Of a stretch of 64,000 nt of DNA, positions 1 through 62,675 are shown one piece after another. The position numbers were made by a program, and so were the translations under genes. Source of the DNA: a virus; the IMG/VR virus record IMGVR_UViG_3300034415_000120. The stretch is one strand, 5' to 3'. Position 1 is the stretch's first letter; each line of letters begins with the position of its first letter. A model generated the notes under the pieces. That model had not been told where the DNA came from. It ran no database searches and saw only the letters and a list, made by a program, of their open reading frames with translations.

Positions 1-63
1 TCAATTTTGGGAGAGTGACGGTCTTAGAACTGTAGGGTATGGGTTCAAGTCCCATAATTCCCA
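1..63 (+). tRNA. 3' portion of a tRNA, truncated by the window edge. T-arm ATGGG-TTCAAGT-CCCAT with acceptor 3' strand AATTCCC; anticodon stem ACGGT/ACTGT with an atypical 6-nt loop CTTAGA.
   Basis: Perfect 5-bp T-stem with a GGTTCAAGTCC T-loop at 39-55; acceptor 3' strand 56-62 plus discriminator A63, no encoded CCA. Anticodon stem 18-22/29-33 pairs but its loop is not canonical, so the isotype is unclear (TAG, i.e. Leu, is possible). Confidence 0.45.
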
Positions 64-58305: not shown

Positions 58306-58499
58306 TTATTAGTAGCGGAGAGCTAGTACGAGAGTTAAGACGTATTGGGGATAATTTTATCACTGTTGAAGTTGAGAATAGAGAATATGTAATTGATATG
58401 ATTTCGCATAAACCAAATTGTGCTGATTCATTATGTACACATCTTGTTTTGAAATGTAAAGATGGTGGTAACGGTGAAATCAAAAGAATTTGCTCATAA
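58302..58499 (+). CDS. small hypothetical protein
   Basis: ORF (GTG start). Confidence 0.3.
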   Translation: MIISSGELVRELRRIGDNFITVEVENREYVIDMISHKPNCADSLCTHLVLKCKDGGNGEIKRICS

Positions 58500-59005
58500 G
58501 GATATGGAGGGCAAGTTAATAGTTGCATGTTGATAAAATTTGATATATCCCATTTATACAATTTATATATAAGAGAATTAAACACTATATGGACTATTAA
58601 TTTTTGGATAAATTTTTGAAACGCCCTCCATTAACAAATATTATATCACATTTGTGGAGAAAATAAACATATAAGAAAAAATTAGTAAGGAATCATAAAA
58701 CAATGACAGAAAAAGAGAAGAAACTACTTGTGGAACTTATATGCAACGAGCAGACACATATGATTCGTAAAGATCATACCAGATATGATACTGATGAATA
58801 TAAAGAATTAGAAGCATTGAAAATTAAGATTAAAGATATGTGAGGTGGTTATTATGAATGCAGTTGTTATCGGAGTTGGAGCTTTTATAATTGCGTGTTT
58901 GATTGTAATCGCATATATGTGCTTATGTTTAGCAATTTCAACGAAGGATAGAGAAAAGATGGAAAAGGAACTATTTAATAAGAGATTTAGTAAAGGAGAT
59001 AATGA

Positions 59006-61499
59006 ATGATTAGAATTATCAAAAAGGATGGGACTTTAGAAGATTTTGATGAACAAAAAATTGTAAATGCTTGTGATAAAGCCGCAAGACGAGCAATGTT
59101 TGAATTTTCAGAAAATGATTATTCTATTATTCTGAATGATGTTTGGCAAAAAATCGAAGAACTATATGAAGACGATTCCAATATTGAAATTTATGATATG
59201 CACAATATTGTAGAATCCGTGCTTGAAGAAGATTTTCCAGTTGTTGCAAAGATGTATAAAGAGTATAGAAATTACAAAAAAGATTTTGTTCATATGATGG
59301 ATAAGGTATATGAGAGAAGTCAAACTATCAGATATATTGGAGATAAAAACAATGCCAATACAGATAGTGCATTAGTAGCAACTAAAAGAAGTCTTATTTA
59401 CAATGAATTAAGTAGCCAATTATATAAGAAATTTTTCTTAACGCATGATGAAAAACAGGCTATGAAAGATGGATATATTTATATTCATGATAGAAGTGCA
59501 AGACTTGACACATTTAACTGTTGCTTATTTGATATTGGTTCAGTTATGAAGAATGGATTTGAAATGGGAAATATTTGGTATAATGAGCCAAATTATCTGG
59601 ACACTGCTTTTGATGTTATGGGAGATATTATTTTATCAACGGCTGCACAACAATATGGTGGTTTCACTGTACCAGAAGTAGACAAAATTTTAGAACCATA
59701 TGCAGAGAAAAGTTATGATAAATATTTTAATGAATATTTAGAAATTTGCGAAGATGTAAATGGTATTATTCCAGAAGTAATGGATTATAGATGTGAAAAA
59801 GCATGTGAATATGCAACTGAAAAAGTAGAACGTGACTTTGAACAGGGATGGCAAGGGATAGAATATAAATTAAATAGCGTTGGATCAAGTCGAGGTGACT
59901 ATCCGTTTGTAACAATGACCGTAGGGTTATCTACGAGCAAGTTTGGGAAAATGGCTGCGATTACATTATTAAATGTTCATAAAGAAGGTCAAGGTAAAAA
60001 CGGATTTAAACGCCCTGTATTATTCCCTAAAATTGTATTTCTTTACGACAAAGATTTACACGGAGATGGTTCTGAAAAATATCCAAGTGCAGATGTATTT
60101 AATGCAGGAATTGAATGTAGTGCAAAAACAATGTATCCAGATTGGTTATCATTAACAGGCGATGGATATGTGGCAGAAATGTATAAGAAATATAAACGAG
60201 TGGTAAGTCCGATGGGATGTAGGGCGTTCCTTTCACCTTGGTATGAAAAAGGTGGAATGCATCCAGTGGATGAAAATGACAAACCTGTTTTCGAAGGAAG
60301 ATTTAACTTGGGCGTTGTGAGTCTGCATCTTCCTATGATTCTTGCTAAAGCAAGAAGAGAATCTAAAGATTTCTATGACGTTCTTAATTATTATCTTGAA
60401 ATGATTCGTAATCTCCATAAACGTACATATGAATACATTGGCGAATTAAGAGCAAGTGTAAATCCTATTGCATTTTGTGAAGGTGGGTTACTTGGTGGTC
60501 ATTTAAAACCAGACGATAAAATTAAATCATTATTATCACCAATGACATTAAGTTATGGAATTACAGCGTTAAACGAACTTCAAAGATTATATAATGGCAA
60601 ATCTATCAGAGAAGATGGGGAATTTGCATTAGAAGTAATGAAGTATATCAATAATTATACAAATAAAATCAAAGAAGAAGATCATTTACTCTATGCAATT
60701 TACGGCACTCCTGCTGAGAGTTTATGTGGGTTGCAAATTAAGCAGTTCCGTAAGATTTATGGAATCGTAGAAAATGTATCAGATAGAGAATATGTAAGTA
60801 ATAGCTTTCACTGTCATGTATCAGAAGATATGAACCCTATCGAAAAGCAAGATAAAGAAGGAAGATTCTGGAATTATTTTAATGGTGGAAAAATTCAATA
60901 TTGCAGATATAATCTTGGGTACAATAAAGAAGCTATTAAAACATTGGTATTAAGAGCTATGGATAAAGGTTTCTATGAAGGTGTAAATCTTGCAATGTGC
61001 TATTGTGAAGATTGTGGGTATCAGCAAGTGGAGATGGATATATGTCCTAAGTGTGGAAGTAAAATGATTACAAAGATTGACAGGATAGAAAATCCGTTTG
61101 TCCTGTATAAATAGGTTAAATTGCGGGGACATCCCCATAATCCTATCTCGCTACAACGTAACTAGAAATGGTAAGCGTGAATGCGGTACATATTTATAAT
61201 ATATCAGCCGAAAGGTAGAAACCATAAAAAGTAGATAGGTTAGGGACAACCGAGTGTGCAAGTCACTCAGACGCAGCGAAATCTTCTTAACAGATCATGC
61301 TGATGAAGAACGTTCAGAGACTATAATCCTACATTGATTGTATAGTCCAACCCGTTATTCATATATGAATAAGAAATATTACGAAAGTGACGGTAATTAA
61401 AGATATTGGAACGGTTATCTAGGATTCACAAGAGTTCATGGTAAGACAAGATACAATGAGGCAAAAAATGCTGAAATTAAAGATAGGGTGAGCATGTGA
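59006..61499 (+). CDS. nrdD: Anaerobic ribonucleoside-triphosphate reductase NrdD, split by a group I intron (exon 1 59006-~61093; exon 2 ~61410-61499)
   Basis: ATP-cone N-terminus (MIRIIKKDGTLEDFDEQKI); C-terminal Zn ribbon CEDCGY...CPKCGS at the end of exon 1. The readthrough stops at 61114 without the glycyl-radical motif. Exon 2 (frame with GGT at 61413) encodes (N)GYLGFTRVHGKTRYNEAKNAEIKDRVSM*, matching the class III RVCGYLG....N.GK..E..RRV C-terminus. Confidence 0.75.
61094..61409 (+). ncRNA. Group I self-splicing intron in nrdD (~316 nt; boundaries +/- a few nt)
   Basis: Conserved R/S elements GTTCAGAGACTATA (61311-61324) and TATAGTCC (61341-61348) forming P7. The intron ends in G (61409) and exon 1 ends in U (61093). 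Higher GC and stop-rich, unlike the flanking coding DNA. Confidence 0.7.
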
Positions 61500-62116
61500 T
61501 TATAGATTTTAGACAAAAAATAAATGATGTATTTATAACTAATGAAGGGTATAAAATTCAAATCATTGACTACCTTGATACTAAAAATGTTCTAATTAAT
61601 TTTGTAGATAGACCAGATGTTCAAATTTGGTCTACTCTGCAAAATATTAAGAAAGGACAAATTAAAAATCCATATCATAGATCTGTATATAATAAAGGTT
61701 ATTATGGCATAGGGAAATATACCGCAAGAAAAAATAACGTAAAAACAGAAGAGTATGTAAAATGGATAAGTATGTTTGTAAGATGTTATGACGAAAAATA
61801 TCATATGAGACAACATACATATATTGGCTGTAAAGTATCAGAAGAATTTTGTAATTTCCAAAATTTTGCTGAATGGTATTCACATTATAAATACGATTGT
61901 AAATATCCATTAGAAATCGACAAAGATTTGTTATATGAAGGAAATAAAATTTATTCTCCAAGAACTTGTTGTGTGATACCTAAAGAAATTAATACAACAT
62001 TAAATAGTAAAAGACATGACATTTCTACAATGAAAAGTTTATACCAAAAATATAAAATGGATGTTCCTTATTATATAAGAACTGAATTGTATGAACTAAC
62101 AAAGGAGAATAAATAA
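61496..62116 (+). CDS. Free-standing ORF between nrdD exon 2 and nrdG; candidate homing-endonuclease-like or DNA-binding protein
   Basis: GTG start overlapping the nrdD exon-2 stop. The position (between nrd genes, next to an intron) is typical of freestanding HEGs. Only weak AP2-like similarity (YNKGYYGIGKYTARKN); no clear HNH/GIY-YIG/LAGLIDADG motif. Confidence 0.3.
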   Translation: MIIDFRQKINDVFITNEGYKIQIIDYLDTKNVLINFVDRPDVQIWSTLQNIKKGQIKNPYHRSVYNKGYYGIGKYTARKNNVKTEEYVKWISMFVRCYDEKYHMRQHTYIGCKVSEEFCNFQNFAEWYSHYKYDCKYPLEIDKDLLYEGNKIYSPRTCCVIPKEINTTLNSKRHDISTMKSLYQKYKMDVPYYIRTELYELTKENK

Positions 62117-62117
62117 T

Positions 62118-62675
62118 ATGAATTATCATAATATAACATATCCAGATCAAAACAATGGTGATGGATTAAGAATTGTATTATGGGTAGCTGGTTGTGAACA
62201 TCATTGTGCAAATTGCCAGAATCAACAAACGTGGAATCCGCAAAGTGGGATTCCATTTGATGAAAATTCAATGAATGAAATACGAAATGAGTTAAAAAAA
62301 GACTATATTAGTGGCATTACATTCAGTGGTGGTGACCCTTTACACCCTAAAAATGTACAAAATGTTCTGAAAATCGTAGATGAAATCCGAGTTTCATATC
62401 CCACTAAAAATATATGGTTATACACAGGATATACTTGGGAAGAAATCTGGATTAAAGATATAGTAAAAACTGGTGATAGAATTAAAAATATGAGACAAAA
62501 AGCAATTACAAATCTTCGCAGACAAGTAGTAAGTATGTGTGACGTACTTATAGATGGGAGATATGTTGATGAACTCAGAGATGTATCACTACATTGGATA
62601 GGTTCATCAAATCAGAGGGTTATTAATGTACAAGAAACATTGGAACAAAAACAAATAGTATTATGGGAGTCTTAA
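62118..62675 (+). CDS. nrdG: Anaerobic ribonucleotide reductase activating protein NrdG (radical SAM)
   Basis: N-terminus MNYHNITYPDQNNGDGLRIVLWVAGCEHHCANCQNQQTW matches the NrdG consensus (..VLFVSGC.H.C.GC.N..TW). Confidence 0.8.
   Translation: MNYHNITYPDQNNGDGLRIVLWVAGCEHHCANCQNQQTWNPQSGIPFDENSMNEIRNELKKDYISGITFSGGDPLHPKNVQNVLKIVDEIRVSYPTKNIWLYTGYTWEEIWIKDIVKTGDRIKNMRQKAITNLRRQVVSMCDVLIDGRYVDELRDVSLHWIGSSNQRVINVQETLEQKQIVLWES

What the first reader, a model, noticed from the sequence alone, without database searches (positions are those of the whole stretch)
59006..62116. nrdD interrupted by a compact group I intron; the glycyl-radical exon sits 316 nt downstream, followed by a freestanding endonuclease-like ORF
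The annotated NrdD ORF ends right after its Zn ribbon without the essential RxxGY glycyl-radical motif. A short exon at ~61410-61499 encodes ..NGYLGFTRVHGKTRYNEAKNAEIKDRVSM, which restores it. The intervening 61094-61409 has the group I R/S core (CAGAGACTATA / TATAGTCC). An automated annotation would call nrdD truncated. The adjacent 206-aa ORF, wedged between nrdD and nrdG with an overlapping GTG start, is positioned like a mobile homing endonuclease. The splice-site pairing (P1/P10) is not clean, so the boundaries are approximate.
Basis: partly seen in the sequence, partly recalled or inferred. Interest (0 to 1): 0.6.

Follow-up and report, generated by a model that had tools for sequence, protein, structure and literature searches.

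The report
Split phage nrdD: intron plus endonuclease
A gut phage's anaerobic ribonucleotide reductase gene is cut just before its catalytic glycine by a small self-splicing group I intron and followed by a selfish endonuclease gene; this is a known type of arrangement, but the intron lacks one normally universal helix (P8).

Summary
The nrdD ORF (59006-61114) stops after the Zn ribbon. Joining 59006-61086 to 61409-61499 gives a 723-aa NrdD. It ends ...KIDRMNGYLGFTRVHGKTRYNEAKNAEIKDRVSM, exactly as in dozens of uninterrupted 97-99%-identical homologues. The intron is 61087-61408 (322 nt, no ORF), ending in G.

- P1 is ACAGGAU/GUCCUGU, with U·G at the splice site.
- P10 is GAACGG/CCGUUU.

Rfam scores the intron only 18.9 bits. 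Even so, ten related nrdD introns support a group I fold: 99% of cells paired and 17 compensatory pairs. A 33-nt module is identical to Twort nrdE intron 2. The 29-codon exon 2 has no start codon yet is under strong purifying selection, so splicing is inferred.

This intron clade has no P2, and P8 is reduced to CAUUG.

ORF 61496-62116 belongs to a widespread phage family annotated as HNH endonuclease, but a Lys replaces the first His. It sits where T4 has mobC. Close intron-less relatives lack both intron and ORF. However, every combination of intron and ORF exists in other loci, so the two elements are separable. No cleavage or splicing was tested.

Overall this is a new variant of a known kind.

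The parts
59006..61086 (+). nrdD exon 1: ATP-cone, NrdD barrel and Zn ribbon. It ends with the first two bases (AT) of the Met694 codon. The last 7 nt (61080-61086, ACAGGAT) are the 5' strand of P1.
61087..61408 (+). ORF-less group I intron, 322 nt. The first base is A and the last base, G61408, is ωG.
   Evidence: Boundaries come from intron-less homologues. Weak Rfam hit at 61186-61393. Covariation.
61094..61106 (+). Internal guide sequence. CCGTTT (61094-61099) pairs with exon 2 GAACGG to form P10. GTCCTGT (61100-61106) pairs with exon 1 ACAGGAT to form P1, with a U·G pair at the 5' splice site.
   Evidence: Direct reading. 8/8 sequences paired. The guide co-varies with the exons in L008 and L185.
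61112..61116 (+). P3 5' strand (TAGGT). It pairs with 61326 and 61328-61331. There is no P2 between P1 and P3.
61122..61275 (+). P4 (61122-61125 with 61272-61275) enclosing P5, P5a, P5b, P5c and an extra hairpin. P5c has a GAAA loop. The 33-nt module 61151-61183 is identical to Twort nrdE intron 2. The extra hairpin (61252-61268) lies in J5/4.
61276..61313 (+). P6, P6a and P6b.
   Evidence: compensatory changes in P6a and P6b.
61317..61348 (+). P7 is G61317 plus 61319-61325, paired with 61341-61348. A61318 is bulged, which is the guanosine-site pattern. Enclosed are the P3 3' strand (61326-61331) and only 9 nt, CATTGATTG (61332-61340), where P8 and J8/7 should be.
61352..61393 (+). P9 three-way junction: P9 (CCG/CGG), a variable hairpin P9a, and P9b with a GAAA tetraloop.
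61409..61499 (+). nrdD exon 2: G completes Met694, then NGYLGFTRVHGKTRYNEAKNAEIKDRVSM and the stop codon. The radical glycine is G696 of the spliced product. 61409-61414 is the exon strand of P10.
61496..62116 (+). Free-standing 206-aa ORF of a family annotated as HNH endonuclease. It has an N-terminal SH3/KOW-like barrel followed by a ββα-Me-like domain. The invariant motif is LDKD...N150...N166. The GTG start overlaps the nrdD stop.
62118..62675 (+). nrdG, the radical-SAM activase of NrdD. An AAGGAG ribosome-binding site lies inside the 3' end of the endonuclease-like ORF (62102-62107).

Best explanation
nrdD, the 206-aa ORF and nrdG are read as one operon.

Splicing (inferred):
- The 322-nt insert at 61087-61408 is a self-splicing group I intron.
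- Its guide sequence pairs with the last 7 nt of exon 1 to form P1, placing U61086 in a U·G wobble.
- An external guanosine bound in P7 (the G-C pair next to bulged A61318) attacks after U61086.
- ωG61408 then enters the same site, and P10 aligns exon 2.
- The exons are ligated to recreate codon AT|G (Met694).
- The product is a 723-aa NrdD whose radical glycine G696 (RMNGY) can be activated by NrdG.

Mobility (inferred):
- The ORF at 61496-62116 is a free-standing homing endonuclease gene of an HNH-like family, lodged exactly between the nrdD stop and the nrdG start.
- It most likely cuts nrdD/nrdG alleles that lack it in co-infecting relatives.
- Repair from the donor would copy the endonuclease gene. 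Because only 87 nt separate the two, the intron and its adapted exon flanks would be copied as well. This is collaborative or trans homing.

Shown here: the split, the exact junction, the fold with covariation, selection on exon 2, and the presence/absence polymorphism.

Inferred, not shown: splicing itself, endonuclease activity and its target.
For: Junction:
- Uninterrupted 723-aa homologues at 97-99% identity read ...KIDRMNGYLGFTRVHGKTRYNEAKNAEIKDRVSM.
- Pfam NRDD coverage extends from 2-539 to 2-560 of 562 after joining.
- PDB 8p23 NrdD aligns across the junction.

Fold:
- P1 has 7 bp and P10 has 6 bp.
- 70 pairs on 8 introns are 99.1% paired, against 35-39% when partners are slid.
- 17 pairs carry double changes, against 2-5 in slid controls, and 0 of 500 shuffles reach the observed values.
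- P1, P10, P3 and P7 change compensatorily in L008 and L185.
- A 33-nt module is identical to the Twort nrdE intron that holds I-TwoI.

Function:
- Exon 2 has no in-frame start codon.
- Among intron-bearing alleles dN/dS was 0-0.4 for the 15 of 21 pairs where dS could be computed, with synonymous sites near saturation.

Mobility:
- 11 intron-less loci have nrdD abutting nrdG, with neither intron nor ORF.
- All 10 intron-bearing alleles carry GACAGGAT|GAACGG. All intron-less close relatives carry GATCGAAT|GAATGG. The differences are synonymous and are exactly the P1 and P10 partners.
- Divergence from intron-less relatives rises towards the intron. NrdD is 97.5% identical to them but NrdG only 79-82%.
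- Copies of the ORF are frameshifted in L023, L024, L027, L127 and L185, as expected for a decaying selfish gene.
- The ORF matches phrog_953 (8.6e-34). It has homologues in 1367 phage records, often several per genome and annotated as HNH homing endonuclease.
- T4 has the same gene order, nrdD[intron]-mobC(HNH)-nrdG.
Against: - No RNA or enzyme data exist.
- Rfam Intron_gpI scores 18.9 bits against a gathering score of 50, and nothing passes at gathering threshold.
- The MFE z-score is only -1.5.
- P8, a core helix of group I introns, is missing. Autonomous splicing is therefore not guaranteed.
- The ORF has no Pfam hit.
- The first His of the HNH motif is replaced by an invariant Lys.
- Intron and ORF are separable. 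L031 has the intron without the ORF. L128-L133 have the ORF next to an uninterrupted nrdD. The endonuclease need not target the intron site.
Confidence: 0.8

Rival explanations
1. The insert is a decayed group I intron that no longer splices. nrdD is then a pseudogene truncated after the Zn ribbon, and the phage relies on the host NrdD.
For: P2 and P8 are absent. The Rfam score is far below threshold. The fold energy is unremarkable. Lachnospiraceae hosts encode a close NrdD at 66-82% identity.
Against: - Exon 2 stays open and under purifying selection in all 10 intron-bearing alleles. Their NrdD identity to the window ranges from 63% to 99%.
- Intron helices keep pairing through 17 compensatory changes.
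- P1 and P10 partners in the exons are invariant.
- nrdG is retained downstream.
Confidence: 0.07
2. The intron splices, but the 206-aa ORF is not its mobility partner. It is an independent free-standing selfish gene, or a domesticated DNA-binding protein, that targets the nrdD/nrdG junction or another site. The intron is inherited vertically or moves by reverse splicing.
For: - All four combinations of intron and ORF occur.
- Exon 2 is saturated at synonymous sites between intron-bearing lineages, so the intron is old in most of them.
- The catalytic His is replaced by Lys.
- A related intron sits 8 nt away in L185 and L008, with a guide sequence retuned to the new exons. This fits RNA-level site choice.
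Against: - Within the window's own close lineage the two elements are gained or lost together.
- Only 87 nt separate them, so any repair event started by the ORF's product would co-convert the intron.
- Identity to the window drops sharply across the ORF: NrdD 97.5% against NrdG 79-82%.
Confidence: 0.3
3. There is no intron. The two nrdD pieces are joined by translational bypassing or frameshifting, or the C-terminal piece is made as a separate 'spare-part' glycyl-radical peptide like GrcA/YfiD.
For: T4-type phages do use translational bypassing in another gene, and small glycyl-radical spare-part proteins exist for pyruvate formate-lyase (background knowledge).
Against: - The gap is 322 nt and carries a covarying group I fold.
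- Exon 2 has no start codon and no ribosome-binding site.
- The boundaries have the canonical U·G and ωG, and P1/P10 pairing tracks the exon sequence in three different contexts.
Confidence: 0.01

Closest known systems
Phage T4 nrdD (sunY) group IA intron with I-TevII, and the T4 nrdD-mobC-nrdG arrangement
   Same: Both have a phage anaerobic RNR large-subunit gene split by a self-splicing group I intron. Both have an HNH-type free-standing endonuclease gene wedged between nrdD and nrdG, with its start overlapping the nrdD stop (PMC2988022).
   Different: - The T4 intron is about 1 kb, carries its own GIY-YIG endonuclease, and sits roughly one third into the gene. It is not at the glycyl-radical motif, which is uninterrupted in T4.
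- MobC shows no sequence similarity to the 206-aa ORF (E 2.4).
Staphylococcus phage Twort nrdE intron 2 (IA2, encodes I-TwoI) and related Staphylococcus and Lactococcus phage introns
   Same: 33 nt (61151-61183, P5b-P5c) are 100% identical. The 5' part, about nt 23-97, is 76-81% identical. They share the R/S core GTTCA..GACTAT / ATAGTC.
   Different: The host gene is different (class Ib nrdE). The Twort intron holds an ORF and has P7.1/P7.2 and a normal P8, with 63 nt between the P7 strands against 15 nt here. No deposited phage record holds more than 26% of this intron.
Collaborative or trans homing: cyanophage S-PM2 psbA intron with F-CphI, and T4 mobE with the nrdB intron
   Same: An ORF-less (or endonuclease-dead) group I intron lies next to a free-standing endonuclease gene in a conserved gene, and the two are inherited together in close relatives (PMC3984707, PMC2988022, PMC2790892).
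   Different: In those systems cleavage at or near the intron insertion site was demonstrated. Here nothing is tested. An ORF-plus, intron-minus lineage exists. The endonuclease family also differs: F-CphI is Endo VII-like (PMC6083498).
Group I introns fragmenting nrdD in gut 'Jug' jumbo phages (PMC12880540)
   Same: These are gut phages whose nrdD is split by small group I introns, with stand-alone HNH genes nearby. Splicing of nrdD pieces was seen in metatranscriptomes for that clade.
   Different: That is a different phage clade: 360-402 kb and Bacteroides/Phocaeicola hosts. The contigs here are about 165-180 kb and their NrdD relatives are Lachnospiraceae. I did not compare sequences or insertion sites with that paper's data.

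Membership tests
Group I self-splicing intron | P1: the 5' exon pairs with an internal guide, with a U·G wobble at the splice site. | tested here: met
   ACAGGAU/GUCCUGU, 7 bp, with U61086·G61100. Present in 8/8 related introns. It co-varies with the exon in L008 and L185.
Group I self-splicing intron | A terminal guanosine (ωG), and P10 pairing of the guide with the 3' exon. | tested here: met
   The intron ends in G61408. P10 is CCGUUU/GAACGG, 6 bp adjacent to P1. P10 is retuned in L008 (CCAAUA/UAUUGG) and L185 (GCCUAA/UUAGGC).
Group I self-splicing intron | P3-P7 pseudoknot with a guanosine-binding P7 (G-C pair next to a bulged A). | tested here: met
   P7 is G(A)GACUAUA/UAUAGUCC and P3 is UAGG/CCUA, crossing it. 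Both are invariant in the clade and compensatory in L185, L008 and L010. Actual guanosine binding is not testable here.
Group I self-splicing intron | P4-P6 domain. | tested here: met
   P4, P5, P5a-c, P6 and P6a-b were counted, with compensatory changes in P5, P5a, P5c, P6a and P6b.
Group I self-splicing intron | P8 hairpin between P3' and J8/7. | tested here: not met
   Only CAUUGAUUG lies between P3' and P7'. That is 15 nt between the P7 strands, against 26-76 nt with clear hairpins in relatives. The same holds in all 10 site-A nrdD introns.
Group I self-splicing intron | A match to the curated covariance model (Rfam RF00028). | tested here: not met
   18.9 bits against a gathering score of 50. 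E is 0.041 only when 1.3 kb is searched, and there is no hit at gathering threshold.
Group I self-splicing intron | Autocatalytic, guanosine-dependent splicing. | not testable with these tools
   Indirect evidence only: exon 2 is under purifying selection with no start codon of its own.
NrdD (class III anaerobic ribonucleotide reductase) | A C-terminal Zn ribbon followed by the RxxGY glycyl-radical loop, with an adjacent NrdG activase. | tested here: met
   The spliced product matches Pfam NRDD at 2.6e-114 over profile positions 2-560 of 562. It aligns to 8p23 over ...RITGYL.... nrdG matches Fer4_12 at 7.8e-47.
HNH (ββα-Me) homing endonuclease | ββα-metal fold with an H...N...H/N catalytic motif. 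| tested here: inconclusive
   - PHROG families annotated as HNH endonuclease match at 8.6e-34 and 1e-27.
- Foldseek finds nothing and there is no Pfam HNH hit.
- The motif is D142-K143-D144...N150...N166, so the first His is an invariant Lys.
HNH (ββα-Me) homing endonuclease | Selfish-gene behaviour: presence/absence polymorphism at a fixed site, decay by frameshifts, and multiple copies per genome. | tested here: met
   The ORF is absent from 11 close loci. It is frameshifted in five loci. Many phage records hold 2-4 copies.
Collaborative / trans homing pair | [quoted passage not shown] | not testable with these tools
   Only co-occurrence is available, and it is imperfect.

The most novel reading that the evidence does not exclude
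The nrdD intron clade represented here (282-322 nt in at least 10 phage lineages) may be a naturally functional group I ribozyme that has lost both P2 and the supposedly universal P8 helix. Sister introns 8 nt away in the same motif keep P8. If so, P8 is dispensable in vivo, or is replaced by a protein or another RNA contact.

In addition, two related introns flank the radical-glycine codon, and both are found next to the same family of free-standing HNH-like genes. That would make this locus a natural series of intermediates for how introns and endonucleases converge on one target (collaborative homing).
Probability: 0.35. Interest if true: 0.6.

Novelty: new variant of a known kind. Interest (0 to 1): 0.5.

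Why it matters
Practical consequences:
- Gene callers report this nrdD as a 702-aa truncated protein. That protein cluster (P0038) stands for 195 member sequences. Rfam does not flag the intron. Metabolic annotation of these abundant gut phages will therefore wrongly score anaerobic RNR as broken.

Biological interest:
- The locus adds a compact intron inserted inside the codons of the glycyl-radical loop, the most conserved stretch of the enzyme.
- It shows the whole range of states side by side in related phages:
  - no intron and no endonuclease gene;
  - intron alone;
  - endonuclease gene alone;
  - both elements together;
  - decayed endonuclease gene;
  - intron at a second site 8 nt away;
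  - an additional intein.
- That makes it a convenient natural system for testing collaborative homing.
- A conserved intron without P8 would be of interest to ribozyme structural biologists if splicing is confirmed.

Tried and rejected
- Rfam at gathering threshold over the whole window found only a cut tRNA. An E-value scan gave a sub-threshold, partly misaligned Intron_gpI hit that could not place S or P8.
- I first read GGGGACAUCCCC as a local hairpin (a supposed P2.1). I rejected it after comparison with relatives showed that CCCC pairs with a downstream GGG(A) as P5.
- I first read CAACG/CAUUG as P3. I rejected it because of a C·A mismatch and the lack of covariation. UAGG/CCUA is supported by L008, L185 and L010 instead.
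- I tested the idea that the extra hairpin P9a compensates for the lost P8. It fails, because L031 has neither.
- A strict intron-plus-ORF linkage seemed to hold in viral contigs and in protein look-ups. The metagenome scan broke it with ORF-plus, intron-minus loci.
- MobC of T4 is not a detectable homologue of the ORF.
- Foldseek against the PDB gave no significant match for the ORF model.
- Pfam gave nothing for the ORF. More distant homologues carry AP2 domains that this ORF lacks.
- The promoter and terminator scan was no better than chance, so there is no evidence for a separate promoter for the ORF.
- Two literature searches for natural group I introns without P8 returned nothing relevant. 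This is not proof of novelty.
- Rfam found nothing in the second nrdD interruptions of L024 (an intein) or L031.
Full report
**1. What is in the sequence**

The ORF at 59006-61114 (702 aa) has an ATP-cone and an NrdD body. It ends ...CEDCGYQQVEMDICPKCGSKMITKIDRIENPFVLYK*. Pfam NRDD matches only profile positions 2-539 of 562.

About 300 nt downstream, the frame opened after TAA 61398-61400 reads RYW-NGYLGFTRVHGKTRYNEAKNAEIKDRVSM*. There is no ATG, GTG or TTG in frame before NGY. A 206-aa ORF starts at GTG 61496, overlapping the stop (ATGTGA). It ends one base before the nrdG ATG at 62118. nrdG matches Fer4_12 at 7.8e-47.

**2. The exact junction**

A canonical group I choice is a U before the 5' splice site and a G as the last intron base. 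That choice joins 59006-61086 to 61409-61499 in frame and gives 723 aa with ...KIDR-M-NGYLG....

A protein search returned dozens of uninterrupted proteins, mostly of 723 aa, at 97-99% identity. Their C-termini read ...MITKIDRMNGYLGFTRVHG(K/E)TRYNEAKNAEIKDRVSM, which is exactly the predicted ligation product including the Met made by the split codon AT|G. The same search returned the truncated form (P0038, 702 aa, 195 member sequences) ending ...DRIENPFVLYK, as in the window.

After joining, Pfam coverage extends to 2-560 of 562 and the score rises from 363.5 to 383.3 bits. The solved Prevotella NrdD (8p23) aligns across the junction: CPKCGSHHIDKLQRITGYL against CPKCGSKMITKIDRMNGYL.

The intron is therefore 61087-61408 (322 nt). 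The radical glycine is G696 of the spliced protein.

**3. Is it a group I intron?**

Rfam says little. There is no hit at gathering threshold. When 1.3 kb is scanned, Intron_gpI gives 18.9 bits against a gathering score of 50 (E 0.041), with a poor alignment. The MFE z-score is -1.5.

The sequence says more.
- P1 is 5'-ACAGGAU-3' (61080-61086) with 5'-GUCCUGU-3' (61100-61106), with U·G at the splice site.
- P10 lies immediately 5' of P1 in the guide: 5'-CCGUUU-3' (61094-61099) pairs with the first six exon 2 bases, GAACGG.
- Bases 61151-61183 are 100% identical to a stretch of Twort nrdE intron 2, the intron that holds I-TwoI. The same stretch occurs in introns of Lactococcus AM phages and in 13 IMG/VR contigs.
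- No deposited phage record contains more than about a quarter of this intron.

**4. Comparative structure**

Scans of viral contigs, bacterial genome contigs and metagenome contigs gave 10 distinct nrdD alleles with an intron at the same site: window/L020, L021, L022, L023, L024, L025, L030, L031, L039 and L132. The intron is 72-77% identical to the window's, and NrdD is 63-99% identical.

I counted a hand-derived structure on eight of them (alignment A3). It comprises P1, P10, P3, P4, P5, P5a, P5b, P5c, an extra hairpin in J5/4, P6, P6a, P6b, P7, P9 and P9b.
- 99.1% of 560 cells are paired, against 35-39% when partners are slid by 1-3 columns.
- 17 pairs have changes on both sides, against 2-5 in the slid controls.
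- 0 of 500 shuffles reach the observed values.
- The window row is offset by one column in P5a. Its own P5a is CCUAUCU/AGAUAGG.

The core helices are invariant inside this clade. They change compensatorily in two sister introns:

| Helix | Window | L008 | L185 |
|---|---|---|---|
| P1 | ACAGGAU/GUCCUGU | GUGGAU/GUCCAC | AUGGAU/GUCCAU |
| P10 | CCGUUU/GAACGG | CCAAUA/UAUUGG | GCCUAA/UUAGGC |
| P3 | UAGG/CCUA | UCGGA/UCCGA | UCGAA/UUCGA |
| P7 | GACUAUA/UAUAGUC | GACUAUA/UAUAGUC | GAGUAUA/UGUACUC |

P7 shows the G(A)G.../...CC pattern, a G-C pair after a bulged A. From background knowledge this matches the guanosine site of the Tetrahymena intron.

**5. What is unusual in the RNA**

There is no P2: five bases separate P1 from P3. 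There is also no P8. Between the P3 3' strand and the P7 3' strand lie only CAUUGAUUG.

The distance between the two P7 strands is 15 nt here and in all site-A nrdD introns. In relatives it is 26-76 nt with obvious P8 hairpins (L008, L010 twice, L018, L007, L009, Twort). Compared with L010 intron 2 (CAUCCUUAUGGGAUG), the window's CAUUG looks like P8 with its interior deleted.

A variable hairpin in the P9 junction (P9a) is not a substitute, because L031 lacks both. I found no description of natural P8-less group I introns in the searchable literature, which is weak evidence of novelty.

**6. Does it splice?**

This was not testable directly. The indirect evidence is as follows.
- Exon 2 cannot be translated on its own.
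- Among seven intron-bearing alleles it shows 6-16 synonymous differences against 0-16 non-synonymous ones over 29 codons. dS runs from 0.4 to saturation and dN from 0 to 0.27.
- dN/dS was 0-0.4 for the 15 of 21 pairs where dS could be computed, and at most 0.11 in 11 of those.
- The exon bases that form P1 and P10 are invariant in all intron-bearing alleles.
- Splicing of split nrdD genes by small group I introns has been observed in metatranscriptomes of other gut phages (PMC12880540).

**7. The 206-aa ORF**

- Pfam finds nothing.
- PHROGs gives families annotated as HNH endonuclease: phrog_953 at 8.6e-34 and phrog_2081 at 1e-27.
- 913 homologues were found in metagenomes. More distant ones carry a C-terminal AP2 domain that this ORF lacks.
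- 1367 deposited phage records encode relatives below 60% identity. Many hold 2-4 copies, annotated as HNH or HNH homing endonuclease.
- An AlphaFold model built from 38 sequences is confident (pLDDT 94.5).
- The invariant motif is L-D142-K143-D144...G149-N150-K151-x-Y153...C158...P162...N166. A Lys sits where HNH enzymes have the first His.

Nuclease activity is therefore plausible but unproven.

**8. Population picture**

- **No intron, no ORF.** Close relatives of the window phage come from contigs up to about 165-175 kb. In 11 loci shown, nrdD runs straight into nrdG (...AGCATGTAATATGAAT...), with neither intron nor ORF. The window equals such an allele plus 322 nt at AT|G and about 618 nt between the stop and the nrdG start.
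- **Flanking bases.** Intron-bearing alleles all read GACAGGAT|GAACGG(Y)TATCT. Intron-less close relatives all read GATCGAAT|GAATGGTTATTT. The changes are synonymous, and they are the P1 and P10 partners.
- **Divergence gradient.** Differences between the window and intron-less relatives are 0-8 per 90 nt over most of nrdD (one bin reaches 15). They rise to 9-14 towards the intron and are much higher beyond the ORF. NrdG is 79-82% identical at the protein level against 97.5% for NrdD. This is the pattern expected for a co-conversion tract and for an exchange boundary at a nuclease gene (compare PMC10448857).
- **Decayed copies.** The ORF is frameshifted in L023, L024, L027, L127 and L185.
- **The linkage is not absolute:**
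  - L031 has the intron without the ORF.
  - L128, L129, L130 and L133 (one lineage) have the ORF after an uninterrupted nrdD reading GATCGCATGAACGGATATATTGG.
  - L185 has the ORF (frameshifted) with a related, P8-containing intron 8 nt downstream, at GGAU|AU in the Tyr codon.
  - L008, a 26%-identical nrdD on a 243-kb contig, has that second-site intron and no ORF.

**9. Mechanism and confidence**

| Claim | Confidence |
|---|---|
| A group I intron whose removal restores NrdD | about 0.9 |
| It splices without help despite lacking P8 | about 0.6-0.7 |
| The ORF is an active homing endonuclease | about 0.6 |
| The ORF mobilises the intron by cutting at or near the intron site (collaborative or trans homing, PMC3984707, PMC2790892) | about 0.4 |

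The alternative to the last claim is that the ORF is an independent junction-targeting element that merely drags the intron along.

**10. Comparison with known systems**

T4 has the same gene order: nrdD split by a group IA intron, then mobC (HNH, target unknown), then nrdG (PMC2988022). The T4 intron is about 1 kb, holds I-TevII, and lies far upstream of the intact RTCGYLG motif. MobC is not detectably related to this ORF.

The intron's nearest sequence relatives are the Twort-type introns. The finding is therefore a new variant of a well-known kind, not a new kind. The likely hosts are Lachnospiraceae, judged from NrdD relatives at 66-82% identity.

Noticed in passing
L024:1152-2252 (also L027 and L127); protein P0067: In some related phages nrdD also carries an in-frame LAGLIDADG-type intein at SPMG|C...SHN|CRAF (residue 405 of the window NrdD). 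One gene then holds an intein, the glycyl-radical-site intron and the HNH-like ORF. P0067 (1091 aa, 179 members) has intein Pfam domains.
   Followed up: partly
L031:8883-9809 (minus strand): There is a second interruption of nrdD, about 950 nt, at AAQQYG|GFTVPEVD (residue 218). It contains a 186-aa ORF with a canonical NUMOD4/HNH-looking sequence (..VVNHKDGNKLNN..NLE..). It is probably another intron with its own endonuclease. Rfam found nothing there.
   Followed up: partly
L185:1113-1423 and L008:1810-2127: A related intron (76-80% identical over the aligned 228-261 nt) sits 8 nt downstream of the window's site, at GGAU|AU in the Tyr codon after the radical Gly. Its guide sequence is retuned to those exons and it has a normal P8. 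One case is in a nrdD only 26% identical to the window's.
   Followed up: yes
window 61403-61408; L008:2128-2134; L128:1401-1412: The last six bases of the window intron (ATATTG) equal the first six exon bases after the second-site intron in L008. They also equal the same codons (GGA TAT ATT GG) of the uninterrupted L128 gene. This may be a relic of a splice-site shift or of ectopic transposition between the two sites. It is unexplained.
   Followed up: partly
L128, L129, L130, L133 (metagenome contigs up to 177 kb): A homologue of the 206-aa ORF (67-69% identical) sits between an uninterrupted nrdD and nrdG. The endonuclease-like gene can therefore exist without any intron.
   Followed up: yes
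window 61151-61183: A 33-nt stretch (P5b, P5c with its GAAA loop, and flanks) is 100% identical in introns of unrelated genes and hosts: Twort nrdE, Lactococcus AM phages and 13 IMG/VR contigs. The surrounding intron sequence is much more diverged. It looks like a strongly constrained tertiary-contact module.
   Followed up: partly
window 58446-58800 and 62118-62675: Compared with close intron-less relatives, nrdD is nearly identical. The about 350 nt upstream of the small ORFs before nrdD is almost unalignable (56-73 mismatches per 90 nt), and NrdG is only 79-82% identical. nrdD appears to sit between recombination boundaries.
   Followed up: no
window 1-63: A tRNA gene is cut by the start of the window (Rfam tRNA 30.2 bits, model positions 12-71).
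   Followed up: no
L002, L119-L123 (relatives of the window phage): A phage integrase gene lies about 2.4 kb downstream of nrdG on the opposite strand in related 110-175 kb contigs. This suggests that these large Lachnospiraceae-associated phages are temperate.
   Followed up: no
L010:565-1300: Two compact ORF-less introns of the same family lie about 300 nt apart in one gene of a 66-kb viral contig. Both have normal P8 hairpins.
   Followed up: no
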